Origin: Rhizophagus irregularis
Taxonomy: Eukaryota
Reading direction: 5' to 3'
Length of the DNA stretch: 64,000 bases
NCBI RefSeq assembly: GCF_026210795.1
Contig: NC_089433.1
Span: 4,464,001-4,528,000 of the forward strand
The notes under the pieces were generated by a model. It was not told the DNA's origin, did not search any database, and saw only the letters and a program-made list of their open reading frames with translations. The position numbers and the translations under genes were made by a program. Shown in pieces: positions 9,013 to 52,649 of this stretch (positions are counted from its first letter, which is position 1; the number at the start of each line of letters is the position of its first letter).

Positions 9013-10596
9013 TCAAGGGATCTGAGATGGTGATGTGTTCGATAAAGTTGGAAGAGCGATAATTTTATCCTCAAAATCTGTTAATTTTAAATATAATCAA
9101 TTTTTTATAAAATTATAAAATCGATTAATTATTTAGCTTACCTTTTATGTTATCATCATTAATTGATGTTGGGAGAGAAAGATCATTTTGACCAGAGTCT
9201 TCTACAAAAATTTAAAATAATAATATTATAAATCAAATTTAATAAAAAATAATTATAAACATTATTACCTAAAGTTAATTTAGCAAGATGTTCTTTAACT
9301 CTTTGAAACGATAAGAAACGACTTGTATAACAAGTACCAGGATTATTACCGGTTAGGTTCATAGTTTTAAGAAGACTATACTTTTTTCTATGTAAATTTG
9401 CTAAATAAGTTTCATTTGGTTCTTTTTCATGATTTTCTAACGTTGTTATAATTTGTTGAGCTGTTGGACGATTTTTTGGGTCTGAATCCCAACATTTTTC
9501 CATTAAATCCATGATATATTTGGAAATACCCATTTTTGGAGAAATTTCTGGACGAAGACCTCTTATAATATCAAGAATCAGAGTCGCATCATGATTTCTG
9601 TTGTTAAAAGGCTCTTCAAATGAATATATTACCCACATAATAATTCCTAAGCTGTATATATCCGATGCTGGCGTATATTGTCTACCAAGAAATATTTCAG
9701 GAGCAATATATGGAATAACACCATAAATTCCTGATGATTTAATTGATGATGATATATTTGCAGGTTGGCATAATCCAAAGTCACTTATACTAAAGTAAAT
9801 GTCTCTACCGCCGTGTTCTCCACCTTTTAGTAAAATATTGCCTATGTGCAAATCACAATGAACTAAACCTGAATTATGCATGATATTAAGTCCTCGAGAA
9901 ATATGATAAACAGTATTTTCATTGGAACTTAAATTAACATCATATACAACGCAATATGCTAATTCTGCAGGTTTCATAATATTTTGTTTTAAATTACCCT
10001 TATTAGCATATTCGGCTACTATTATAAAGTCTTGAGTAATTGGATCATATGAAATTCCGTAAAATCTGATTAAAGAACAAGTCCTAAAATTTGTTCTGTT
10101 GGATTCCATACAATGAATATAATTTTTAACCTACAATTATTATGTAATATGAATTATAAACATAAAAAATCTCATAATTTAAATGTATTGTATATGAATG
10201 CGATTATTACTATACCTCGTTAAGAAAATCCATAGTTATATTTCTTGAATTATATAATTTCTTTAAAGCAACGTCATAAATTCCTTTCCATTTAGCTTTA
10301 TAAATCTCACCAAATCCACCTTTTGCTATATATGTGATTTCACTAAATTGGTTATAAGGTATCCATTTTAAAATTTCATTTGGTTTATTACATTCTTTAA
10401 TAAAATCATCTACAATTTTGTTTCCACTTGACCAATTCGACCAATTCGGATTTTCACATTCGTTGCATAATAATAGTGTTATGCCCCAACAATTAATACA
10501 AATGGACCGAGGGTATTTGTAAATATATTCATTACATTCTTTACACCATTCGATAATTCTACAATTTTCACACAATGTCTCTAATTTTGGTATCAT
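9013..10596 (-). CDS. TKL-type protein kinase with Cys-rich (CxxC) N-terminus, copy 1; exons 10596-10216, 10130-9269, 9201-9142, 9077-9013
   Basis: GGFG, VALKKL, HCDLHIGN, SDFG, APE, DIYSLG and CWDSDPKNRP motifs; exons join in frame at GT-AG sites; stop TGA 9015-9013. Confidence 0.93.
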
Positions 10597-13560: not shown

Positions 13561-15144
13561 TGGTTGGAATATGAACATCAAGTAGATTGTTGTTGTCCAT
13601 TATGATCTGAGGAATTGAAAAGCAAAGTAAACCACCTTTTATATTCATCATCAAACGGTATTGCTGGAGAGATCCGGATTAGCAAAATATTTATTAACAT
13701 CATTGACATGCTAAATATATTAAGTATTTGCGTTATTGCGTTAAGTATTTAATTTAACGTAATGGTGCCATATTGATATTTGATTTGTTCTTGAACTCAC
13801 CGACTTTTTAAATCATGGCAAAACTTAGAACGTTGGGTTGCAAGTCTTCTTTTCGTAGAAATCCTACGTATTATATTTTTAACTCCGCCAACATAAAAGA
13901 TACGTTTCAGTTGTTATATGACCATTAGCTGGCATAGAAGTTATACATTTTTTTGTGACGAGTAAAACATTGTAAGAGGGAATAGTAATGATAATATACT
14001 GTATGTAAAAAAATAGAACGTTGTACTTACTAATACGCCAGCTGCAAGTGCGCATTATATTATAACACTTTAGGACATTTTTTGTTGATCAACGCCGGTT
14101 CGAATCTAGAGAAATAAAACATCAAAGCACAACCGATTTTTGATAAATTAGCTTTCACTGAAATGAGCCAAGCCTAACACATAAATTGACGTATGACCAT
14201 CTTCAAATCGTATTGGAATAATCAGACGTCTGGAGAAATCTTCGGATTGAAGCAGTCTTTCCTGTCCTGTATAATGTTAATATGGGGATGTTAGTTCGCA
14301 TATAAAGTAGTATTCGTTTTGATGTTTGTTGTAACCATGTGCTTTCACATTCTATAATCTCGGGTAATTACAAATAAACATGAATTCTATAAAACGTTTA
14401 TTCATTTATGTATTTTTTTTTTGTCTAAATTTGTCTAACATCATAATATCAAAAAAAAAAAATAATAAATAAAATATCGAAAATAAAAATCTAGTAATCT
14501 CTAATTTGACATGATTTTCTAATTCTTTTGTTATTTCACCATCTTCAGAATTTTTTTTTTGGAGCTAATACTATTAAGTGTAGAAACGATTTCGGAAATA
14601 TCTTTCAAATTCCCAACATCCTATTTAAAGATTAGATAGACTAATTCTGGCTCATTCTTGGATGTCGATCATTGGGCTGGGGTGTATCAATGATACAAAG
14701 GATCTTTTTAGTTTATTTATTTGTTTATTTAGCACTAGAAGAACACGAAGTAAAAGAGAAATCTAATCTAATAGAAAAGAGAACAATGTTGTGACACCCA
14801 GTCTTTATAACCCTCCAAGCCCCCAAAAAATGGGAAACCTTTTTGAGTTAGGTCACAAACTTAAAATCCAAAATTATATATTTGTATGCATCAATTGAAT
14901 CATGCAATGCTTTAAGATTGTTCTAACTCTCAGTTTCCGAATAAATCGAGCAATTTATAAGTTTATCAGTGTTTTTGTATCATTAAAAAGGTAATTTCTA
15001 AACCTAAAATTGGAAAACAATAACGTCTTTGCATTTACATATAATTTTTACTCCAAAATAAATGAATAAGTAAATAAAAAAAATTTAATAAATAATTCTT
15101 TATATAACATGCAAGTGAAAAAAAACAATTAACAATTTTTTAAA

Positions 15145-16110
15145 ATGAATTTATCAGATTATATTCGGTCAATCTTCTTTAAAGTCAATATTAATAATGA
15201 ACGACAAAGAACATTTGTTCTTAACCTATGTACAAAATTTTTGTCTTCAGATACCCGTTCTTTTGGAATTCAATCTAATGATCTTAGTCGTTTTGAAATT
15301 GATGAATTGTATAAATTAGTATTTCGATCAAATGATGTCAAAATGTATTTTTCTCCTAATTCTTTTATAACTTTTAACATAATTCAATATTCATTAGCGA
15401 GTATTTTACCAATTTGTAAAGTATGGTTTCAACCTTATGTTGAAAGTTTAAGGAGATTAGACAAAGAAAAAAGAAGAGAATGGAACCAAAATAGTAACAT
15501 GAATAATCAAGTAGATAATATGAAGAATGATTTAATTAATAATATTGGTCAAATTTTACCTGGTTTTAATTATCTTATTGATTTCAATTGGGATGTTTAT
15601 GAGAATCATCGACATCATGAAGTTGGTGATTTGGTTTTTGGATCAGATTATGGTGTTATTATTGTTATTGAAACTAAGTGGTTTAATACTGATACTTTAA
15701 GCAAAGCGCAAGTAAACGCTAGAAAAAAAGCTAGAAACCGAGTTAGAAAGTATAGAGGATACGCGCAAGAAAAATTTATTGCAGTAAAAGCAATTGGGGC
15801 TGTTTTTACAAATGATACAGGAAATTCCATTCAGTTTGTAGATGATCAAGATGCGGGAATCGCCAAAATTATTGAAATTCATACTCAATATCTTTATAAT
15901 TTCGACCGTGGTAGGATTTCATTAGTTAATCTGTGTTTAATCTTTTTTTTTGTTTTCGTAAACTAATGATTTTTTTATAAAATTCTAGAAGAATGGGAAG
16001 AAAGTCCAGAAAAACGGGGAATATTAAAAACCATTCTATATTATATTATAATAGTATTATTAGTCATTGTTGCTGTAATTGTAGGTTTAGCTATTTTAAC
16101 CGTTCCATAA
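15145..16110 (+). CDS. PD-(D/E)XK nuclease-like protein with C-terminal transmembrane anchor, copy 1; exons 15145-15910 and 15989-16110
   Basis: VGDLVF...IVIETKW fits the D...ExK core. Exon 2 encodes ...KRGILKTILYYIIIVLLVIVAVIVGLAILTVP*. Confidence 0.75.
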
Positions 16111-18527: not shown

Positions 18528-20089
18528 TCAAGAATTCTGGGGTAGTGATGTTACTGATGTATTTGGTAATGTTGGAAGAGCGATAATTTCATCTCCAAAA
18601 TCTGTTTATTTTAAAATAAAGTCAACCTTTTATAAAATCGATTAATAATTAATATTTAGTTTACCTCTTATAAAATCATCATTATTAATTGATGTTGGGA
18701 GCGAAAGATTACTCTTCCCAGAATCTTCTACAAAAATTTAGAATAATACTATTTAAATTATAAGATCAAATTTAACAAAATAGTTTATAAAAATATATTA
18801 CCTAAAGTTGATCGAGAAAGATGTTCTTTAACACTTTGAAACGACAAGAATCGACTTGTATAACAAGTACCAGGATGATTACCGATTAGATTCATAATTT
18901 TAAGAAGACAAACCTTTTTCCTGTGCGAATTTTCTAAGAAAGGTTGGTTCGGACCTTCCTTTAGCATTGTAATAATTTGTTCAGCTGTTGGACGGTTTGT
19001 TGGATCTGAATCCCAACATTTTTCCATCAATTCTTTAATATAATTAGGAATACTTAACTGAGGAGGAATTTCTGGACGAAGACCTCTTACTATAATTTCA
19101 AGAATTAAATTTGCATCATGGCATCTGTTATTATAAGGTTCTTCAAGTGAATATAATACCCAAATAATAATTCCTAAACTATAAATATCTGACGCTTGTG
19201 TATATGGTTTCCCAAGAAATATTTCGGGTGCAACATATGGAATAACACCATAAATTCCTGATGATTTGATTGATGATGATATATTTGCAGGTTGGCTTAA
19301 TCCAAAATCACTTATACAGATTGGCATTTGATGCTGATTTCTTAATAAAATATTGCCTATATGCAAATCACAATGAACTAAACCAGAGCTATGTATTATC
19401 TTAAGTCCTTGAGCAATATCGAATATAATTCTTTTATTGGTACTAAATTTGTAATAATCATTATCTCTAAAGTTATAATTTGTAAATTCTACAGGTTCCA
19501 TGATATTTTTTTTTAAATCTCCTTTATCAGCATATTCAGTTACCATTATGAAATTTTGAGTAATTGAATCATACGAAATTCCATAAAATCTAGTTAAAAA
19601 AGAAGTATCACAATTTTTTCTATTTGATTCCATAGTCTGAATGTAATTTTTAACCTACAATTATAATACAAAAGTGAGTTATTAATATAATAAATCTCGT
19701 AATTTAAATGTAGTATTATGAGATACCTCATTAAGAAAATCAACGGTTATATTTTGAGAATCATATAATTTCTTTAAGACAACATAAGCTCCTTTCCATT
19801 TAGCTTTATAAATTTCTCCAAATCCACCTTTTGCTAAATATGTAATTTCACTAAATTGGTTATAGGGTATCCATTTTAAAACTTCATTTGGTTTATTACA
19901 TTCTTTAATAAAATCATCTACAATCTTATTTCCACTTGACCAATTCGACCAATTCGGATTTTCGCATTCATTACATAATAGTAGTTTTATGGTTTTACAA
20001 TATCCACAAATAGACGGAGAGTATTTATTAGATTGAACCTTACAATACTCACACCATCCAATTACTCTACAATTTTTACATGTTTCCAT
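18528..20089 (-). CDS. TKL-type protein kinase with Cys-rich N-terminus, copy 2 (four exons, paralog of 9013-10596)
   Basis: Same kinase motifs and intron positions as copy 1; last exon DFGDEIIALPTLPNTSVTSLPQNS* ends at 18528. Confidence 0.93.
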
Positions 20090-21104
20090 TGATTTTTTGT
20101 TTATAATTAAAAGAAAAGGGTTAATAAATTGTAGGATTATTGGACAAAATATATAAGCATTACATCATTAGGGAGAAAACACTCCGTTATCGTTTCACAC
20201 AATAACGAATTTGAAAATCCATCCGTTAAGACTTACTGTAAATAGTCAAAATTGCCATTATGCAAACGTGATTTATAGTAACACTTGCCTGACATTAAGT
20301 TACACATTAAATTAATACTTTATTTTTTAGACGATTTAGTTACAATTTGGCGTTCAAATGCTTTACAGTTGAGTTGACTTTACAAGGCGATGGACATTAT
20401 TAATTAAAAATGATATTTTTTTTTGAATCAATTTTTTGAATTTATTTTTTATTTTTTTTTTTAAATTTGATCGTTTCAATCGCAAAAGATTGTGGATAAG
20501 CTGCAAAAAGTTAAGATGATGATACTTAATATTAATTAATTTTTAACATACGTTAAATACTTGAAATAAATTTATAATCCATAATGATAAAACTTAATGT
20601 ATAAAAATATTAATTATTTTTTGAAAGTTTTGCTTGCGCAATTTGCGTAATTTAAATATATTAATATATTAATTTAATTTAACTTTTTGTATAATAATTT
20701 TTTAAATAATTATTAAGTGGCACCAGATAACATGAAATATCAATAATGATAATAAATTCTTGTTTCTTGTAATATACTATACTTTTGTGTACATCCATGC
20801 TTAAAATAGAATCAGGAAAAAAATATTTACCGGCTTTTCATACTGGATCTGCTCTGATTTTTAGATTTCCGAATAAATCGAGCAATTTTTACGTTTATCA
20901 GTGTTTTGTATCATGAAAAAGGTAATTTCTAAATCTAAAGTTGGGAGACAAAGACAGCTTTGCATTTACATATGATTTTTACTCTATAAAAAAAAATAAA
21001 CAAAAAAAAAAAAAATTAAATAAAAATTCTTTATATATATACCACATGCATAACATGTAAATGAAAAAAAAATTTTTATCAATTTTTTTTAAAACTTTCG
21101 AATA

Positions 21105-22053
21105 ATGTCATTCTTCTATGGAGTTGATGTTGACGATGAACAACAAAGAATATTTGTTCTTGACATATGCACAGAAATTTTATCTTCTTCCACGGATACC
21201 TATAATTGTTTTGACATTTCTAAATATAAAGGTCTTTATATTGATAAGCTGCTTAAATTAGTATTTCAATCGAATGATGTTAACGCACATCTTCTTCATC
21301 ATTCACTTGTTCGTGTTGACTTTAATGAAAATACATTAGCGAATGTTTTAAAAATTTGTAAAGTATGGTTTCAACCTTATGTTAGAAATTTAAAGAGAAC
21401 AGACAGAGAGAAAAGAAGAGAATGGGATCAGAATAAAAATATTTATCATCCAGAAGAAAAAATGAAGAATTATTTAATTAATAATATTGACAAAATTTTC
21501 CCCGGTTTCAATTATCTTGTTGATTTCGAATGGTGTGTTAATGAAGATTATCTTCATTATGGAATCGGTGATTTGATTTTTGGATCAGATTATGGTGTTT
21601 ATATTGTTATTGAAACTAAGTGGCTTAATACTAATACTGGAAAAACTGCCCAAGTATCTAGAAATATCGCTAGAAATAAAGTTAAATACCAATCTATAAC
21701 ATATAAAAAATATGCGCAAGAAAAATTTGCGCTAAAAGTAATTGGAGCTTCAGTTACGAATGATGAAGAAAACGCTATTCAGTTTGTAGATAATCAAGAT
21801 GAAAGAATCGCCTCAATTATTAAATATTATCATTCTGGTAAGAAGTATTTCATTAATTAATCTTTTTATCTAATATTTATATTAATCTTTTTTTTTTTAA
21901 TAAACTTTATTAGAATGGGGGACATTTAAAACTATTCTATATTATGTCATAATTTTTCCAATAAAATTAGTCGTTACTGTAATTGGTGTAATAATATTTT
22001 CAGCAATTATTACTGTACTTATAGGATCAATTATGAAAAATACCATTAAATAA
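21105..22053 (+). CDS. PD-(D/E)XK nuclease-like protein with C-terminal transmembrane anchor, copy 2; exons 21105-21837 and 21914-22053
   Basis: FEW...GIGDLIF...IVIETKW...KVKYQSITY gives E, D, ExK and QxxxY motifs. Exon 2 encodes EWGTFKTILYYVIIFPIKLVVTVIGVIIFSAIITVLIGSIMKNTIK*. Confidence 0.78.
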
Positions 22054-31283: not shown

Positions 31284-31864
31284 ATTTTTAATATTATTTA
31301 AATATTTGGTCAATATAGGAATTAAACCAAGGATATTTACTGGATTATATGATGCATTAGTTATTTTTTGATAAATCAAAGTCAACAATATAAATTAAAT
31401 ACAATCAGTTGTTGAAATAAGTATTTTACACTATTCATTTTTAATTTATGTATTGGAAATGGGTTTATATACTTAATATTTGATAATTTATAAAAAAAAA
31501 GGTTTTTTTAAATTATGAACTAAAGAAATTGTAAAATATTTATTACTCTAGTCCTAGTGTTTAAATAATTCTGAAATGAGAATACATATATTTTAATATT
31601 TGAATAGAATATAAAAAAAGGAATTATTTAAATTACAAACTAAGAATCCTTAAAATATTTTATCTAGCTATAGTGTTTAAATAAATTTAAAAAGAATAAT
31701 GAAGAACAATTTTTGTTAAATGCATGATATCAAATATTACTATATCTTTTTTAAGACACAAGTTAATTTTCATTTGTTTTAATATCTAAATGTTAAATAA
31801 ATAAAATTAAAGTTTGTAAAATAATTTATTTATTTTATATTATACTAGCTATATTATATACACT

Positions 31865-34800
31865 TTACATACCTAATTTCTTCAAATTAAATATGCATTC
31901 ATTCAAATCTTCGCTTATTAGCATTTCACTCACTTGTACACTAGTTTGTGAATTTTTACTTTCAAGAATTTCATTCAATTGTTTACTAGTAAAATTAAGT
32001 AAGCGACTTGTATAGCAAGCCTGTGAGTGAGATTCAGTAGCAAGGTTGTTATGCCCAATTGGTGCATTTATAAATTCCATAATATTGCATTTTAATTCTT
32101 CATTAATGTCTTCAATTTTCTTACCAGAAGGAAGAAAAATCCATTCATGAATAATATTTAATACTTCTTTAGAAGATGGTCTTTTTAATGGATCTCCATC
32201 CCAACATTTTTTCATCAAATCAACATAGCATTGCGGAGTATTTTCAATAATTTCAGGACGTTCACCTTCACAAATACTTAAACTAAGTTGAATATCATGT
32301 GCTCTATTATTAAATGGTGGTATTCCAGATGTAAATTCCCACAAAATCATAGAAAAACTATATATATCACTAGCTGGAGTATAAGGTTTGCCTCTTAAAA
32401 CTTCAGGTGCCATAAATGGTACAACACCATAAATCTTATACTCTTTCAAAAATGATTTTACAGGTTGACATAATCCTAAATCACTAATATAAATTCTGTC
32501 TGCTTTATTCTCTTCATCTTTATTATTATTATTATTTAAAATATTGCCATCATGAAAATCACAATGAATAAGATTTAGTCTATGTATATCATCAAGTCCA
32601 GAAATAATTTCATACAACATGTATAATTTATGGTCCCAACCACTTTTAACTATTCTTGTTAAGTTTCTTCTTAAATTACCTTTGTTTGCATAATCCATTA
32701 CTGCCATGTATTTCAAAGTATCTGGATTTTTTGTAAATCCATAAAAATAAATAATATCATATGAATTTGAACAACTTTCATGATATTTCCACTATAAAAA
32801 ATAATAATATATTAATACAAATAAATTATAATTTAAATTAAAAGAAAAAATAAATAATATAATATCATACTTCATTTAAAAATTCATTTAAATTTTCATT
32901 TAAATTATTATGGCATTTAAGAATTACTTCTATATTATTTCCATCATTCTTTAACCAAATAGCTTTGTATATAGTACCAAATCCTCCTTCATTAAGATAT
33001 TCAACATTTTTAAATTTACTATAAGGAATCCATCTTAACTTTTTTTCAAGAATAAATTCATCTATGATTTTATTTCCACTTTTTCCATATCTATAAATTT
33101 AAATAATTAGAAGTTTATAATATAATTTACACTAAAATTTAAAGATTAAAATTAACACTTACTCTAAATTTAAATAGGAATTTAAGATAAAATACGTCAA
33201 AGTTTTGTATAAATATTTATAATAATAAGCTATATTTCATAACTTACCAACTAAAGTAATAGAAATTTAAAATAAAAAAATACAGTTAACAAATAAATAT
33301 TATATATTATATAAAATATAACAATAGAAATAACAACTTACTAGCTATATTAAATAATTTTTTAAATAAAGAATTTAGTTAGTTTTAAATATTATAACAA
33401 ATAAGTAATAATAAAATTAAATAAATACTGTAACTTACACCCTATATTATTTAAATATTTTTTTAAATAAAGAATTTAGTTAGTTTAAATTATATGTAAA
33501 TATTATAACAATAAGTAATAATAGATAATAGAATTAAATAAATAACTTACGAGCTATATTATTTAAATAATTTTTCAAACAAAGAATTTAGTTAGTTTAA
33601 ATTATATGTAAATATTATAACAATAAGTAATAATAGATAATAGAATTAAATAAATAACTTACGAGCTATATTATTTAAATAATTTTTCAAACAAAGAATT
33701 TAGTTAGTTTAAATTATATGTAGATATTATAGCAATATTAAAGTAATAATAGAATCAAATAAATAACTTACACCCTATATTATTTAAATAATTTTTTAAA
33801 TAAATAATTTAGTTAGTTTAAATTATATGTAAATATTATAACAATAAGTAATAATAGAATTAAATAAATAATTTATAACTTACGATCTATTAAATAAAGA
33901 ATTTAGTTATTTAAATTGTATGTAAATATTATAACAATAAGTAATAATAGAATTAAATAAATAACTTACACTCTATATTATTTAAATAATTTTTTAAATA
34001 AAGAATTTAGTTAGTTTAAATTATATAACAATAAGTAAGAATAGAATTAAATAAATAACTTACCCTCTATATTATTTAAATAATTTTTTAGATAAAGAAT
34101 TTAGTTAGTTTAAATTATATGTAAATATTATAACAATAAGTAATAATAGAATTAAATAAATAACTTATAACTTACCATCTATTAAATGAAGAATTTAGTT
34201 AGTTTAAATTACATGTAAATATTATAACAATAAGTAATAATAGAATTAAATAAATAAATAACTTACTAACTAAAAGAAATTACAAAATAATTTTTTAAAT
34301 AAAGAATTTAGTTAGTTTTAAATATTATAACAAATAAGTAATAATAGAATTAAATAAATAATAAAATATTTTTTAAATAAAGAATTTAGTTAGTTTAAAT
34401 TATATGTAAATATTATAACAATGAGTAATAATAGAATTAAATAAATAATTTATAACTTACGATCTATTAAATAAATAATTTAGTTAGTATAAATTATATG
34501 TAAATATTATAACAATAAGTAATAATAGAACTAAATAAATACTATAACTTACACCCTATATTATTTAAATAATTTTTTAAATAAAGAATTTAGTTAGTTT
34601 AAATTATATGTAGATATTATAGCAATATTAAAGTAATAATAGAATCAAATAAATAACTTACACTCTATATTATTTAAATAATTTTTTAAATAAAGAATTT
34701 AGTTAGTTTAAATTATATGTAAATATTGTAACAATAAGTAATAATAGAATTAAATAAATAACTTACCCTCTATATTATTTAAATAATTTTTTAGATAAAG

Positions 34801-36793
34801 AATTTAGTTAGTTTAAATTATATGTAAATATTATAACAATAAGTAATAATAGAATTAAATAAATAACTTATAACTTACCATCTATTAAATGAAGAATTTA
34901 GTTAGTTTTAAATATTATAACAAATAAGTAATAATAGAATTAAATAAATAATAAAATATTTTTTAAATAAAGAATTTAGTTAGTTTAAATTATATGTAAA
35001 TATTATAACAATAAGTAATAATAGAATTAAATAAATAATTTATAACTTACGATCTATTAAACAAATAATTTAGTTAGTATAAATTATATGTAAATATTAT
35101 AACAATAAGTAATAATAGAACTAAATAAATACTATAACTTACACCCTATATTATTTAAATAATTTTTTAAATAAAGAATTTAGTTAGTTTAAATTATATG
35201 TAGATATTATAGCAATATTAAAGTAATAATAGAATCAAATAAATAACTTACACTCTATATTATTTAAATAATTTTTTAAATAAAGAATTTAGTTAGTTTA
35301 AATTATATGTAAATATTGTAACAATAAGTAATAATAGAATTAAATAAATAACTTACCCTCTATATTATTTAAATAATTTTTTAGATAAAGAATTTAGTTA
35401 GTTTAAATTATATGTAAATATTATAACAATAAGTAATAATAGAATTAAATAAATAACTTATAACTTACCATCTATTAAATGAAGAATTTAGTTAGTTTAA
35501 ATTACATGTAAATATTATAACAATAAGTAATAATAGAATTAAATAAATAACTTATAACTTACCATCTATTAAATGAAGAATTTAGTTAGTTTAAATTACA
35601 TGTAAATATTATAAACAATAAGTAATAATAGAATTAAATAAATAACTTACAAGCTATATTATTTAAATAATTTTTTAAATAAAGAATTTAGTTTGTTTAA
35701 ATTATATGGAAATATTATAACAATAAGTAATAATAGAATTAAATAAATAACTTATAACTTACGACCTATTAAATAAAAAATTTAGTTAATTTAAATTATA
35801 TGTAAATATTATAACAACAAGTAATAATAGAATTAATAAATTATTTATAACTTACCATCTATTAAATAAAGAATCTAGTTAGTTTATATTATATGTAAAA
35901 TATTATAACAATAAGCAATATTAGAATTAAATAAATAACTTACTCCCTATATTATTTAAATAATTTTTCAAAGAAGAATTTAGTTAGTTTAAATTGCATG
36001 TAAATATTATAACAATAAGTAATAATAGAAATAAATAAATAAATAACTTACTAACTAAAAGAAATTACAAAATAATTTTTTAAATAAAGAATTTAGTTAA
36101 CTTAAATAATAGATATATAGACGTCATATAACTTACACCCTGTAGTATTATCAATTATTAATTGGTTAGATATAAATTTAATAGAAAAGTATTTACTATA
36201 ATTAATATATCACTTACAATCTATTTATTTAAATTAAAAATATGATTAGTTAGATTATATTAAAATATTAAATATTAATAAATAAACATCATATTAATAT
36301 AATATCCTTAAGGCTTAAGTAATATAACTTACCAGCTGTAAAATTATTAATTAGTTATTTAAATAAAGAATTTAGTTATTTGAATATTATATAAAATAAA
36401 TAAAGTGAAAAACTAAAAATTTAATAACTAATAACTTACAAACTATAGTATTATTAATCATTAAATGAATTATTTAGTTATATATAACATAATAAAAATA
36501 ATAATTAATATTTGCAAAATTGTTTAAACTTTTTATGGGATAATTCTAATTTTATATTCTGTATGATTACCTTTATCAATACATTGATCCATTACTATAT
36601 CAAATTCTTCCTAATTGGAAAGATAAAGTAAATATCTTTTTTTTTCTTTTTTTTTATTATTTATACTAAACGTCTTATTAGTACAGATAAATATGGTAAT
36701 AATATTTATGCAAAATGCATTGTATACAAAATGTTGATCACAAGTACAAGTATTATATGTATGACAAACAAATTTTGCATATCTGGAATGCAT
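31865..36793 (-). CDS. TKL-type protein kinase whose N-terminus is encoded by a microexon array; exons 36793-36728, 36610-36571, 31 x 3 nt (36442-33248), 1 nt (33163), 33090-32871, 32791-31865
   Basis: Kinase domain is intact (EGGFG, VILKC, HCDFHDGN, SDLG, APE, DIYSFS, CWDGDPLKRP) and certain. The 5' structure is inferred from splice signals and phase compatibility. The first ATG could instead be 36592. Confidence 0.82.
33163..36442 (-). repeat. Tandem array of ~85-115-bp intron units separated by 3-nt microexons
   Basis: Plus-strand motif ACTTAC-NNN-CT(A/G) occurs 31 times, read on the minus strand as YAG|NNN|GTAAGT. Core units carry a CTAAC branch point (aactaactaaattc). Confidence 0.9.
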
Positions 36794-40898: not shown

Positions 40899-42840
40899 TA
40901 CAGGTCAAATAAATAAAAATCAGATTTTTGCCCTTTTTAATATGGCTGTCTGATTTTTTGGCAATTTTAATATAATATTTCCGATTTTAATAAATATTTC
41001 TGATTTTAATATAATATTTCTGATTTTTAACATGAAATTGCCGATTTTTGGTTATTTGTAATAGGATTTTTCAATTTTAATATGTAACATGTGATTATGT
41101 ATTACGGTTTAATATTTATTTATTAACTTAGATTTTTTTTTATTTCAGTTATAATTATTTTTTTGCCTTAAAAACTTTACTAAAATACTTTTTAAATACT
41201 TTATAAAATAGAATTAAAATATTTTTTTTCTTAAATATAAATACATTTAAATTAAATAACTCATAATTTAAAATATAAACAAATATTATATTTTTTTTAC
41301 ATATATTTCAAAGTATGGTTTGAGCATTTTGGCTGAAGTAAATCTTATTCTTTTAATTAAAAGTAGTTTAGTAAGTTTAAAACTGTTAAGATCATAAAAG
41401 TACAGTTAATATTTTTGGAATTATTTACATTTTTTATATTATACAGTAGTATTAAGTTACAAATTTTTTTACCTTCAGAGCGTATTTTGAGATCTTTAGC
41501 CAAAGTAAATCAACTTCTTATATTAATTGTAAGTTGTTCGGCAGGTTAAAATCTACTTGGATATTAATTTTCACGAAGGTACAGTTAATACTTGATGAGT
41601 TATTTACAATTTTCACAACAGTACTCATTCACGACTTTTATTTTTTTCATTTTGTCACTCCAGAGCGTATTTTGAGCACTTTATCCAAAGTAAACCAACT
41701 TCTTATATTAATTGAAAGTTGTTTAGCATGTCAAAATCTACTTGAATATTAATTTTCACGAAGGTACAGTTAATACTTGATGAGTTATTCACGATTTTCA
41801 CAATGGTACTCATTTACGAATTTTATTTTTTCCGTTTTGTCACTTCAGAGCGTATTTTGAGCACTTTAGTCAAAGCAAATCGACTTCTTTTATTAATGCA
41901 AAGTTGTTTAGCATGTCAAAATCTACTTGAATATTAATTTTCACGAAGGTACAGTTAATACTTGATGAGTTATTCACGATTTTCACAATGGTACTCATTT
42001 ACGAATTTTATTTTTTTCCGTTTTGTCACTTCAGAGCGTATTTTGAGCACTTTAGTCAAAGTAAATCGACTTCTTTTATTAATTGAAAGTTGTTTAGCAT
42101 GTCAAAATCTACTTGGATATTAATTTTTACGAAGGTACAGTTAATACCTGATGAGTTATTCACGATTTTCACAACAGTACTCATTTACGAATTTTATTTT
42201 TTTCCGTTTTGTCACTTCAGAGCTTATTTTGAGCACTTTAGTCAAAGTAAATCGACTTCTTTTATTAATTGAATGTTGTTCGGCAGGTCAAAATCTACTT
42301 GGATATTAATTTTTACGAAGGTACAGTTAATACCTGATGAGTTATTCACGATTTTCACAACGGTACTCATTTACGAATTTTATTTTTTCCATTTTGTTAC
42401 TTCAGAGCGTATTTTAAGCACTTTAGCCAAAGTAAATCGACTTCTTTTATTAATTAAAAATTGTTCAGCAGCTTAGAATCTACTTGAATATTTATTTTAA
42501 TGAAGGCACAGTTAATATTTGTGGAGTTATTAATTTTTTATAATTGTGCGTATTACATTAAATTACAAGTAAATTTATATTCTTAATGTATTTTGTTTAA
42601 AATTTAATTATTTAACATTAGTTTTTTATTTAATATTGCTTAATAAAATATTTTTTAAATTTTAATTCAATATTATAATATAATTTTTTATAAAAATATA
42701 TATTTCATAATGTATATACAATTTTTTTGTATAGTGAAAAAACTGAAAAATGTGGTTAAGAATTGGTAATACAGCTGTAAAAAGTCACAAATCGGACAAA
42801 TATAGCTAAAATCAGCCAATTTTTATTTATTTGACGTGTG
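40899..42840. mobile_element. Nested CACTA-like element inside the 5.9-kb element
   Basis: tacaggtcaaataaataaaaat ... atttttatttatttgacgtgtg inverted ends flanked by ATA on both sides; GATTTT-type subterminal repeats at 40920-41050. Confidence 0.7.
41300..42530. repeat. ~185-bp tandem repeat, about 6 copies
   Basis: gaaggtacagttaata anchor (last copy gaaggcacag) at 41575, 41760, 41945, 42131, 42317 and 42502. Confidence 0.92.
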
Positions 42841-43048
42841 ATAGAGTAAGTTTTTCTACACTTTAAAGCATCAAACAATACTAGTATCTGCTAATATATA
42901 CTACCCAAAAACTCACTGATGTAAAATCACAATTATTAAAAAATTCACAAGAATTTTTGTTAATACTGTTTAATTTTTAAGTTCAAAGTCCGATTGATAA
43001 TACTAAATTCAAAACTCAATTATAAATCATTTTTATAAATTATAATTT

Positions 43049-43840
43049 AAAAATTAAGCAGTATTAAGGAAAATTCTCATGAATTTTTCTTAATACTACT
43101 TAATTCTAATTTAACCAATTTAGTATTAAGGTTTTAATTTAAAAATTAAGCAGTATCAAGGAAAATTCTTGCGAATTTTTCTTAATACTGCTTAATTCTA
43201 ATTTAACTAATTTAGTATTAAGGTTTTAATTTAAAAATTAAGCAGTATCAAGGAAAATTCTTGCGAATTTTTCTTAATACTGCTTAATTCTAATTTAACT
43301 AATTTAGTATTAAGGCTTTAATTTAAAAATTAAGCAGTATCAAGGAAAATTCTTGCGAATTTTTCTTAATACTGCTTAATTCTAATTTAACTAATTTAGT
43401 ATTAAGGCTTTGATTTAAAAATTAAGCAGTATCAAGGAAAATTCTTGCGAATTTTCCTTGATACTGCTTAATTCTAATTTAACTAATTTAGTATTAAGGC
43501 TTTGATTTAAAAATTAAGCAGTATCAAGGAAAATTCGCAAGAATTTTTCTTAATACTGCTTAATTCTAATTTAACTAATTTAGTATTAAGGTTTTAATTT
43601 AAAAATTAAGCAGTATCAAGGAAAATTCTTGCGAATTTTTCTTAATACTGCTTAATTCTAATTTAACTAATTTAGTATTAAGGCTTTAATTTAAAAATTA
43701 AGCAGTATCAAGGAAAATTCTTGCGAATTTTTCTTAATACTGCTTAATTCTAATTTAACTAATTTAGTATTAAGGCTTTGATTTAAAAATTAAGCAGTAT
43801 CAAGGAAAATTCTTGCGAATTTTTCTTAATACTGCTTATA
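43049..43840. repeat. 92-bp tandem repeat (9 copies), each with a ~54-bp hairpin
   Basis: aaaaattaagcagtat starts at 43049, 43141, 43233, 43325, 43417, 43509, 43601, 43693 and 43785. Stem aattaagcagtatcaaggaaaattc / gaatttttcttaatactgcttaatt. Confidence 0.95.
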
Positions 43841-50524: not shown

Positions 50525-51452
50525 TAGATGCGAATATGACTTTCGATAGTTTAATAAATAAATAATTATGGGGTTATGGAGGCTGATATTATTATTAAAA
50601 TTTAAAATATGTTTACGATCAGTAACGGTACCGAAATGTAACGTAACCGATTTAAGTGCTACCTTAATCATCAGAAATCAGACACCAGATTAATTTAATC
50701 AAAATCAAACGCCAAATCTGCCAAATTTTACTCTCACGGGAAGGCAGTGGAGGCAGTGCTATGCGAGATTTTTAAGCCACTTACGCAATATTAAGCCTTA
50801 TTACTACAAAATATAAAATTTATTAAAAAAAAATAATAAAATCATGTCAGCAACATACTTGTGATGATGTCTACAATATTTTTTTTTTTTTGAAAAATTT
50901 ATATGAAATTTTTTTAATGTTGACATATTCAAATTTTGCCGTTGTACCAGAATTTCTATCAGACCAATCAAAATATCATCAGATAGTTAAATTATAAATC
51001 ATTATGTTACTAAAAAGCTCATGTTAAAATAAATCTGACATGAAAATGATCGTCATTTTAATTTTGGTGATATTTTCTAAATAGAAGGTAAATATTTACA
51101 AGTGTAAACGAAGATGTACTGCTTACAGAAAAAAAAAATCGTTTAATTGTTACCAGCTTAATAAATAGACTTAATAGTGATAAAAGCCATAAGATAAAAA
51201 TAGTAAAATAAAAATAGTGCATTTTCATCCAATCGGTTGGTCCTGTGACCAAAATTACAATATGATGTAATCTAACCATAATAGTGAAAAGCGAATACTC
51301 ACGCCATTATTTTTACGGGGAGTACAGGTTTATCCAAAAATTTAGTAACACCTTTAAAGTGTTACACGACATCATGTAATTTAATAAATATATACGCCAC
51401 GATAATTTTTTTTCTTAAAAAACTCCCGTTGAATTTGTTAAAGATTAACAAA

Positions 51453-52649
51453 ATGCAACTTCCTATTGATTGCCTTAATAATATTTTTGAACATTTAGAA
51501 AGTGATAAAGTTACTTTGTATTCATGTTTATTAGTCAATCGACTTTGGTGTAAACTTTCCGTCAGAATTTTATGGAGTAAAATTAGAAATTACAATACTT
51601 TAATTTCTTGTCTTCCGAATGAATCAAAAGAAATCTTACTTAATAATGGAATTTTAATAACAAATTCAAAACCTCCAATATTTAATTATGCATCATTTTG
51701 TAAATTTCTATCAATTTATGAAGTTAATTATAATATTAAGAATATTCTTAAAAGAAGATATTTTATTTCTGTTCAAAATTTAGACGATAATATTTTTATT
51801 GTATCACAGGAAATATTTAAACTTCTTATGGGACAAATTCCTTCTTTAAGAAAAATAACATTTTTAGGTTGGTCATTAAAACATATTACAAATTTTACTT
51901 CATATTCTGGAGCTAGAGATTGTTTAAAAAATTTAACAGAATTATATTGTTATTCAAGTATTCGTACCGAATTTTTTTATCAATTATCTCAAGTATGTCA
52001 TACTTTAAAAACACTAAAAATAATATACAAAAAAGTCATTTCAAGTGGATTGGTTGATTTAGTATCCGTTCAACAAAATTTAAAATATATGTGTATGTAT
52101 CGATTTGGTCTTCATAAAGATTTGAAAGATACAATTAATTTGATATCAAAAATTCCTAATACTTTAATTTCAATAAATATTTATGGGGGAAGAATGCATC
52201 CAAATATTTCATTATCATTTATATCTAGATTCACTAAATTACAAGAACTTATATTAACATTTTATAGTAATGAACCTTATAGAGATTTTAGTAATTTACA
52301 ATACGATATTTTTCCATATTTACAACGTTTAGAATTTAAAAGAGAATGTCCTGATAATGATTCATTAGTAAATTTTTTGGAAATTAATGGAAAAAATTTA
52401 AAAGAATTTTATGTTAGAAATAGTAATAATTTATTAAATTTAGCTATAATTAAATTTTGTCCAAATCTTAGAAAACTTTCTACTAAATTTAGTAATGATG
52501 AATTAGATACGTTAAAATTTATTCTTAATACTTGTCAATATTTAGAAACTATTGATATTTTTTGTAAAGAATATATGAATGATTTAAATTTAATTGAGAT
52601 TGTTATGAAAAATGTACCTAAAATTCATTATAAAATCATTTTAATATAA
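51453..52649 (+). CDS. F-box / RNI-like leucine-rich repeat protein, intronless (~398 aa)
   Basis: MQLPIDCLNNIFEHL...LYSCLLVNRLWCKLSVRILW F-box-like start, then the PPIFNYASFCKFL motif and LxxL repeats (FCPNLRKL). First ATG at 51453. Confidence 0.9.
   Translation: MQLPIDCLNNIFEHLESDKVTLYSCLLVNRLWCKLSVRILWSKIRNYNTLISCLPNESKEILLNNGILITNSKPPIFNYASFCKFLSIYEVNYNIKNILKRRYFISVQNLDDNIFIVSQEIFKLLMGQIPSLRKITFLGWSLKHITNFTSYSGARDCLKNLTELYCYSSIRTEFFYQLSQVCHTLKTLKIIYKKVISSGLVDLVSVQQNLKYMCMYRFGLHKDLKDTINLISKIPNTLISINIYGGRMHPNISLSFISRFTKLQELILTFYSNEPYRDFSNLQYDIFPYLQRLEFKRECPDNDSLVNFLEINGKNLKEFYVRNSNNLLNLAIIKFCPNLRKLSTKFSNDELDTLKFILNTCQYLETIDIFCKEYMNDLNLIEIVMKNVPKIHYKIILI

What the first reader, a model, noticed from the sequence alone, without database searches (positions are those of the whole stretch)
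33248..36442. Microexon array as a possible sequence-diversifying device for a kinase sensor region
Seen: exons are 3 nt in phase 1, so each codon is built from two neighbouring exons. Skipping, duplicating or deleting any unit keeps the frame and can change the adjacent residue. The 3-nt positions are far more variable than the near-identical introns around them. 11 exons end in T and 6 start with AG, yet no such pair is adjacent, so TAG is never formed (weak evidence, since block duplication makes the pairs non-independent). The segment sits where the two other kinases in this window carry a CxxC-rich region, just before SGNxxxDxFI. Inference: alternative splicing or unequal crossover could generate many N-terminal variants, for example for non-self or partner recognition.
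Basis: inference. Interest (0 to 1): 0.85.

Follow-up and report, generated by a model that had tools for sequence, protein, structure and literature searches.

The report
One-codon exon arrays in mycorrhizal kinases
A kinase gene of an arbuscular mycorrhizal fungus carries 31 three-base exon-like units and one single-base unit between short, mostly near-identical introns; related soil-fungal genes carry similar rows in different orders, and these likely encode a fast-changing, tryptophan- and tyrosine-rich peptide in front of the kinase that public gene models miss and that may serve recognition.

Summary
Confirmed and extended. On the minus strand, 31 AG-NNN-GTAAG units (36442-33248) and a 1-nt exon (33163) join a start exon to an intact Rhizophagus irregularis-type tyrosine-kinase-like kinase; only with the 1-nt exon is the frame open. 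The layout recurs in 55 other non-redundant metagenome loci (13 of the 62 before merging show a kinase exon downstream). There, 0 of 390 adjacent phase-1 junctions make a stop (shuffles 15.4 +/- 3.0), so the arrays code. Skip-one junctions make stops at chance rate (15 of 318; 12.4 expected), so selection shows for the all-exons-in order, not for skipped isoforms. Exon bases change about 10 times more than intron bases; a 590-bp block is duplicated and two units lost their exon; no two loci share more than 3 consecutive exons. RNA reads of paralogues run upstream into triplets of the same alphabet. Best reading: DNA-level shuffling of codon cassettes makes a hypervariable W/Y/D-rich N-terminus; alternative splicing and a sensing role are untested. 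It works like the Tuber nank mini-exons but is not an NLR. The scan noted similar arrays earlier in kinase-HET genes of other fungi.

The parts
36571..36592 (-). Predicted first coding exon (ATG, 22 nt, ends in phase 1)
   Evidence: the same start motif (MDQCIGKV) opens homologue P0114; not seen in RNA
33248..36442 (-). Array of 31 three-nt phase-1 microexons, each with a YAG acceptor and a GTAAGT donor; introns 78-191 nt
   Evidence: coding shown by comparative stop avoidance
34281..35501 (-). Recent block duplication inside the array (offset 590 bp, 631 bp with 12 mismatches, five exons per block); partial further copies at offsets 703 and 1293
34882..35050 (-). Double-length intron (169 nt) with two branch-point motifs: a unit that has likely lost its AG-NNN-GT core
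34270..34460 (-). Double-length intron (191 nt) with two branch-point motifs: same likely exon loss
33163..33163 (-). Single-nucleotide exon (A) needed to keep the frame into the kinase
   Evidence: same geometry in L067; 13 paralogue-like RNA reads use the donor right behind it
32871..33090 (-). Exon with the GKSGN-IDEF-WIPY linker, glycine-rich loop and catalytic lysine of the kinase
   Evidence: PF07714 E=0.0012, below the curated cut-off on this piece alone
32792..32870 (-). Ordinary 79-nt intron, spliced in RNA
   Evidence: joint 32791/32871 in 31, 36, 32 and 21 reads of four runs, mostly paralogues
31865..32791 (-). Last exon: rest of the tyrosine-kinase-like domain (HCDFHDGN, DLG, APE motifs) and stop
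   Evidence: 98% identical to R. irregularis P0002, which passes PF07714 and PF00069

Best explanation
The repeat is a row of 31 three-base units plus one single-base unit that are likely spliced as exons into the front of a tyrosine-kinase-like kinase mRNA, and it likely works as a DNA-level codon shuffler that keeps changing a short aromatic-acidic peptide predicted to bind other molecules. Shown: the units, their phase, an open frame, duplication of units, coding constraint and different orders across related loci. Inferred steps: (1) each short intron with its perfect GTAAGT donor is recognised on its own (intron definition), so exons of 3 and 1 nt can be joined in order; (2) near-identical introns allow unequal crossing-over and gene conversion, which add, drop or swap intron+exon cassettes without shifting the frame; (3) in phase 1 every codon is built from two neighbours, so a swap also changes the junction residue; (4) selection removes orders that make a stop and favours Trp, Tyr, Asp, Asn and Arg; (5) the peptide takes the place of the CxxC knuckle of other family members and would act as the variable input of an expanded signalling-kinase family. 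Most transcripts would include all exons; skipping may add variants but shows no sign of having been selected.
For: Open frame only with all units and the 1-nt exon. 62 of 116 fetched metagenome loci have the layout and 13 of the 62 have a kinase exon downstream. In 55 non-redundant loci: 0 of 390 adjacent phase-1 junction stops against 15.4 +/- 3.0; phase 2 gives 72 of 390; four exons are stop codons in phase 0. Across 33 loci able to form a stop the joint chance of none is about 2e-9. 432 of 442 GTAAGT donors inside arrays lie exactly 3 nt behind a YAG (about three per locus are forced by the search pattern). Conserved phase-1 acceptor 32 nt before the W-[TIS]-S motif in 10 of 11 loci. Minimum substitutions per site: exons 3.3, introns 0.32. 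Block duplication and two exon-less units. Longest shared exon run between any two of 56 loci is 3. Residues at 388 junctions: D 13%, W 12%, N 11%, Y 9%, R 8%; W 46 against 23.9 +/- 3.6 in shuffles and 1.7% in the kinases. RNA: 119, 171, 177 and 53 reads leave the large exon at 33087 with agreement of only 0.65-0.71; read by hand, all 32 consensus triplets upstream start with AT, GG, TT or CT, as 329 of 475 microexons do (42% of codons in ordinary ORFs).
Against: The RNA reads are mostly 90-95% identical, so they come from paralogues; only 31, 42, 42 and 5 of 1778, 2085, 2234 and 1544 laid reads are 99% alike, and reads were laid on 32000-33280 only, so splicing of this gene's own array is not seen. 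The loose-end lines are majority lines over mixed reads and favour common bases. No allele of this array from another isolate was compared. High exon against intron divergence also arises if conversion homogenises introns while old exon differences are merely kept. Half of the Trp excess comes from one conserved Trp at the array start (7.4% without it). In L085 the array lies upstream of a retained CxxC knuckle, so it does not always replace it. No ligand, partner or phenotype is known.
Confidence: 0.68

Rival explanations
1. Alternative splicing is the main device: one gene yields many isoforms by skipping codon-sized exons, as reported for the Tuber nank genes.
For: Every 3-nt unit is frame-neutral; in this array 0 of 29 single skips make a stop (2.0 expected, P=0.065). 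Four papers cite extensive alternative splicing of 3-bp exons in Tuber. RNA loose ends at 33087 are the least uniform of the 20 rows shown. Exons starting AA, AG or GA are 83 of 475 (17%) against 20% of ordinary codons, so most skips stay sense.
Against: In 55 other loci skip-one junctions make stops at chance rate (15 of 318 against 12.4 +/- 3.0, spread over 15 loci), as do skips of two and three (11 of 249, 10 of 195), while adjacent junctions never do. The mixed loose ends are explained by many paralogues. The test cannot exclude skipping whose few stop-bearing products are simply degraded.
Confidence: 0.2
2. The array is a coding but nearly neutral by-product: a microexon-intron unit expands like a minisatellite, and the peptide is a tolerated spacer selected only against stops.
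For: Rapid gain and loss of units; no conserved order; apart from Trp, His and stops, residue counts lie within about 2.5 sd of what the exon pool gives on shuffling.
Against: The exon pool itself is skewed (GG starts 92 of 475, 19%, against 2% of ordinary codons), T-GG junctions (Trp) are twice the shuffle value, and the costly layout is kept in two kinase subfamilies whose linker exons are only 46-60% alike. Splice-site preferences could cause part of the skew.
Confidence: 0.17
3. The repeat is non-coding satellite DNA in a 5' region or intron, and the kinase starts lower down, as in public gene models.
For: Public models of close homologues start at or near the FGKSGN motif, or read through the preceding intron. 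Tandem Repeats Finder sees it as a 94-112 bp repeat.
Against: 0 of 390 junction stops, fixed 3-nt length, matching phases at both ends, periodic spliced sequence upstream of the large exon in RNA of paralogues.
Confidence: 0.04
4. The many introns serve regulation (splicing delay, or decay of partly spliced mRNA as a rheostat) and the peptide matters little.
For: 33 introns precede the kinase; 13 reads keep the intron before the 1-nt exon while the next one is removed.
Against: It does not explain why exon bases vary ten times more than intron bases, nor the Trp excess. The 13 reads are few against 520 loose-end reads and most have short anchors.
Confidence: 0.05

Closest known systems
[quoted passage not shown] 2012, PMID 22289772; paper not held, seen only as cited in passages of PMC4986451, PMC10197012, PMC13449251, PMC9815663)
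   Same: Dozens of 3-bp exons in an expanded gene family of a mycorrhizal fungus, at a proposed recognition region.
   Different: Here the host gene is a tyrosine-kinase-like kinase of a Glomeromycota fungus, the array is N-terminal, the exons are in phase 1 with a closing 1-nt exon, and the evidence points to DNA-level shuffling; alternative splicing, reported for Tuber, is not shown. Phase and intron similarity in Tuber are not given in the passages read.
Expanded tyrosine-kinase-like family of Rhizophagus irregularis (PMC4219462, passage citing Tisserant et al. 2013)
   Same: The kinase belongs to it: 979 proteins at E<=1e-50; every species-named hit among the best 120 is Rhizophagus.
   Different: No microexon array is described in the passage or found in the searches; public models cut the gene off at the array or appear to read it in another frame.
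Fungal NLRs with high internal repeat conservation, and brown-algal exon-shuffled receptors (passages of PMC13449251, PMC9815663)
   Same: Near-identical repeats drive unequal crossing-over and reshuffling, with variation concentrated at a few coding positions.
   Different: There the repeat is a protein repeat or a whole-repeat exon; here the conserved repeat is the intron and the variable payload is three bases.
Schistosome micro-exon genes (recalled, no call)
   Same: Rows of tiny frame-neutral exons proposed to vary a protein.
   Different: Recalled as secreted proteins made mostly of 6-36 nt exons; here 3-nt exons form under a tenth of a cytoplasmic-type kinase.

Membership tests
Tuber nank-type codon-sized mini-exon genes | Tens of 3-bp exons in a row | tested here: met
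   31 in the window; up to 27 in other loci
Tuber nank-type codon-sized mini-exon genes | NACHT-ankyrin NLR architecture | tested here: not met
   Pfam finds only kinase families in the 98%-identical P0002
Tuber nank-type codon-sized mini-exon genes | Array in the C-terminal recognition region | tested here: not met
   Array lies between the start exon and the kinase; C-terminal placement in Tuber from PMC9815663 passage
Tuber nank-type codon-sized mini-exon genes | Extensive alternative splicing of the mini-exons | tested here: inconclusive
   No isoform-level reads of the array; skip junctions show no stop avoidance
Glomeromycota tyrosine-kinase-like kinases | PF07714/PF00069 kinase domain with intact catalytic motifs | tested here: met
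   Glycine loop, lysine, HCDFHDGN, DLG and APE motifs read; P0002 passes both cut-offs
Glomeromycota tyrosine-kinase-like kinases | SGN-IDxFI-WIPY linker before the kinase (motif described from the hits, not a curated family) | tested here: met
Glomeromycota tyrosine-kinase-like kinases | Kinase activity | not testable with these tools
   needs an assay
Schistosome micro-exon genes (features recalled) | Most of the coding sequence made of micro-exons | tested here: not met
   94 of about 1260 coding bases
Schistosome micro-exon genes (features recalled) | Signal peptide and secretion | not tested
   no predictor run; the predicted N-terminus has no hydrophobic stretch by eye
Introner-like elements (features recalled) | Near-identical introns dispersed over unrelated genes | tested here: inconclusive
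   In the window the units are confined to one tandem row; no genome is held to test dispersal

The most novel reading that the evidence does not exclude
Arbuscular mycorrhizal fungi carry a hidden repertoire of kinases whose N-terminal binding loop is written one codon-cassette at a time and reshuffled by recombination between repeat introns, possibly also between nuclei of one mycelium and by exon skipping. This would be an antibody-loop-like, W/Y/D-rich variable receptor system for self or non-self recognition that current genome annotations do not show.
Probability: 0.3. Interest if true: 0.9.

Novelty: new variant of a known kind. Interest (0 to 1): 0.72.

Why it matters
The kinase family is one of the noted expansions in arbuscular mycorrhizal fungi, and its variable front end appears to be missing or mis-framed in public gene models, so its diversity has not been measurable. 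The array gives a defined, amplifiable locus for asking how these fungi tell self from non-self and whether nuclei in one mycelium differ. It is also a natural test case for how a spliceosome joins 31 three-base exons and a one-base exon. With Tuber NLRs, the kinase-HET arrays noted elsewhere in this scan and the GTPase-linked array in L016, codon-sized exon rows look like a device that fungi have reached several times.

Tried and rejected
No genome is held for the window, so arrays could not be counted genome-wide. No listed holder of the stretch is on record as RNA; no evidence either way. Reads were laid on 32000-33280 only. Phase 0 is open in this array alone but was rejected on the flanking exon phases and on four stop-codon exons in two other loci; phase 2 has 7 stops in 30 junctions. 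Searches for transcript-derived proteins that hold the array peptide in phase 1 gave none I could recognise among 63, 150 and 43 hits. The pattern has 0 matches in viral contigs. An Atlas search of the neighbour's CxxC region gave only unnamed clusters under 0.9, and Pfam names nothing in either CxxC piece. The self-blastn printed nothing and was replaced by an exact-word scan. The codon background held one out-of-frame ORF and was redone. Assembly duplication was considered: the 590-bp copies differ at 12 of 631 positions, which argues against it. 54 of 116 loci were dropped as GC over 27%, off-range spacing or single-triplet repeats, and 7 more as near-identical to another. Paper searches for microexons in arbuscular mycorrhizal fungi found nothing relevant; Iotti 2012 is not held.
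Full report
Observation. The window is 12-13% GC between 33000 and 36000 and holds a 94-112 bp tandem repeat there. On the minus strand it resolves into 31 units YAG-NNN-GTAAGT from 36442 to 33248. A three-unit pattern has 19 matches in the window and none in 100 shuffles. Upstream lies a 22-nt ATG exon ending in phase 1 (36592-36571). Downstream lie a 1-nt exon (33163), a 220-nt exon (33090-32871), a 79-nt intron and a 308-codon last exon. Joined in a script, these give one open frame of about 420 codons; without the 1-nt exon the frame closes. The counts of 11 T-ending and 6 AG-starting exons are right, but their non-adjacency in this array alone is weak (0 of 30, 2.0 expected, P=0.07).

Host gene. 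The last exon is 98% identical to a Rhizophagus irregularis protein, and 979 proteins score E<=1e-50. That protein passes PF07714 and PF00069. The two other kinases in the window have CxxC-rich stretches before their SGN motif, a layout common among the 150 representatives returned. Public models of close homologues mostly start at the FGKSGN motif or read through the intron before it. 7 of 120 have an N-terminal stretch at least two-thirds I, M, G or L (0 of 120 in a control region), which is what the microexon alphabet spells in phase 0; I infer these are paralogous arrays read in the wrong frame, but their DNA was not seen.

Family. A pattern scan of about half the metagenome collection returned 119 stretches, 116 loci in the files. 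62 were AT-rich with about 100-nt spacing and varied triplets; 13 of the 62 have a kinase exon downstream on the same strand, and most of the rest are cut by contig ends. Merging near-identical loci left 55 with 475 exons, 3 to 27 per locus. The kinase of L069 has only unnamed metagenomic relatives at E<=1e-90, so at least one lineage other than the window's carries arrays; that it is a Glomeromycota fungus is inferred from the shared kinase type and introns.

Coding test. In those 55 loci 0 of 390 adjacent phase-1 junctions form a stop, against 15.4 +/- 3.0 in within-locus shuffles; phase 2 gives 72 of 390, and four exons are stops in phase 0. The joint chance over 33 informative loci is about 2e-9. 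In 10 of 11 loci of the W-T-S type the large exon starts at a phase-1 acceptor 32 nt before that motif, just behind where the CxxC knuckle ends in other members; L111 is the exception. Upstream exons end in phase 1 in the loci that keep them, often followed by a conserved Asp-Trp start. 432 of 442 GTAAGT donors in array spans follow a YAG by exactly 3 nt. L067 repeats the 1-nt exon geometry but has a stop just behind it.

RNA. Four runs (three samples, two studies) were laid on 32000-33280 at 90% likeness. Most reads are 90-95% alike and so come from paralogues; 31, 42, 42 and 5 are 99% alike. The 79-nt intron is spliced in 120 reads. At 33087, 119, 171, 177 and 53 reads run on into sequence that is not the window's intron, with agreement of 0.65-0.71, the lowest of the 20 rows shown (375 not shown). 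Read by hand on the minus strand, each 30-letter majority line ends in CTT, TTG, A before the large exon, matching this gene's last units CTA, TTG, A, and all 32 triplets start with AT, GG, TT or CT. These four starts make 329 of 475 microexons and 42% of ordinary codons. The four lines are not independent. 13 reads use the donor behind the 1-nt exon while keeping the intron before it; most have anchors under 30 letters. This supports splicing in the family. It does not show this gene's own isoforms.

How it varies. Introns 5-28 differ by a median 3.9%, the outer ones by 13-19%. In 171 unit pairs exon positions differ in 60%, 53% and 72% of cases against 4.3% for introns; the 6 pairs with under 1% intron difference have identical exons. 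Minimum substitutions per site are 3.3 for exons and 0.32 for 23 introns. A 631-bp block is duplicated at offset 590 with 12 mismatches, and two introns of 169 and 191 nt have two branch-point motifs but no exon core. Within-locus intron divergence in 27 other loci has medians of 4-21%, so the window's array is among the younger ones. No two of 56 loci share more than 3 consecutive exons.

Splicing or shuffling. If skipped isoforms were selected, non-adjacent junctions should also avoid stops. They do not: 15 of 318 skip-one junctions (12.4 +/- 3.0 expected; one each in 15 loci), 11 of 249 and 10 of 195 at larger skips. In the window 0 of 29 single skips but 36 of 435 possible skip junctions give a stop. 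This favours an all-exons-in mRNA with change at DNA level. It does not exclude skipping, because only about 5% of single skips would be lost.

What the peptide may do. At 388 junctions the residues are D 13.4%, W 11.9%, N 10.8%, Y 9.0% and R 8.2%, against 6.1, 1.7, 9.3, 4.8 and 2.6% in the kinases. Trp is 46 against 23.9 +/- 3.6 in shuffles, and 7.4% after removing the conserved first Trp. Such a make-up is typical of binding surfaces (own knowledge). With its place where a CxxC knuckle usually sits, this suggests a variable input module. Against a strict replacement, L085 keeps a knuckle downstream of its array. No partner or phenotype is known, so recognition stays inference.

Literature. 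[quoted passage not shown] 2012, which is not held. A passage of PMC4219462 notes the expansion of tyrosine-kinase-like genes in R. irregularis. Seven searches for microexons in arbuscular mycorrhizal fungi or tandem 3-nt exons in fungi found no description of these arrays (hits seen as listings only, among them PMC6142364). Subscription papers and supplements of genome papers were not seen and could mention them. Three earlier notes of this scan report codon-sized exon rows in kinase-HET and HET genes of other fungi; I did not test them.

Verdict. A real, family-wide gene structure: a new variant of the codon-sized mini-exon device, on a different protein class, in phase 1 and closed by a 1-nt exon, with evidence for DNA-level shuffling rather than selected alternative splicing. 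Interest 0.72.

Noticed in passing
L016 5271-8794 (+), overlapping L017: A separate array of about 59 three-nt exons with about 53-nt near-identical introns in a 42% GC fungal-type contig, downstream of a P-loop GTPase exon (Pfam Arf E=2e-5). It reads open in phase 0 while phase 1 gives 17 stops in 52 junctions: likely an independent origin of the device.
   Followed up: partly
L105 (16 matches) and L013 (5 in a row): More 3-nt exon rows with about 56-nt spacing; host genes not identified.
   Followed up: partly
L082, L041, L087: Short 3-nt exon-like rows in GC-rich (44-56%) contigs with 92-130 nt spacing; may be further lineages or chance repeats.
   Followed up: no
L085: Array followed by an exon that still encodes a CxxC knuckle and the WTS linker.
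   Followed up: partly
L072: Three 3-nt units upstream of an exon that looks like an SH3 domain by eye (label from own knowledge), not a kinase linker.
   Followed up: no
L004 and L037: Arrays upstream of a different kinase-like exon type without the SGN motif.
   Followed up: no
Proteins P0054, P0114, P0015, P0028, P0033, P0071: Paralogues carry an acidic Glu/Ser/Gly repeat between the start motif and the array position; the window gene lacks it.
   Followed up: no
window 41473-42531, 43043-43838, 31466-31684: Other tandem repeats: 185 bp x 5.7, 92 bp x 8.7 and 120 bp x 1.8.
   Followed up: no
window 9183-10596 and 18785-21860, with 15133-15966: Two similar CxxC kinases and two similar unknown ORFs (15133-15966, 21093-21860) suggest a local duplication; an F-box/LRR gene lies at 51288-52649.
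   Followed up: no
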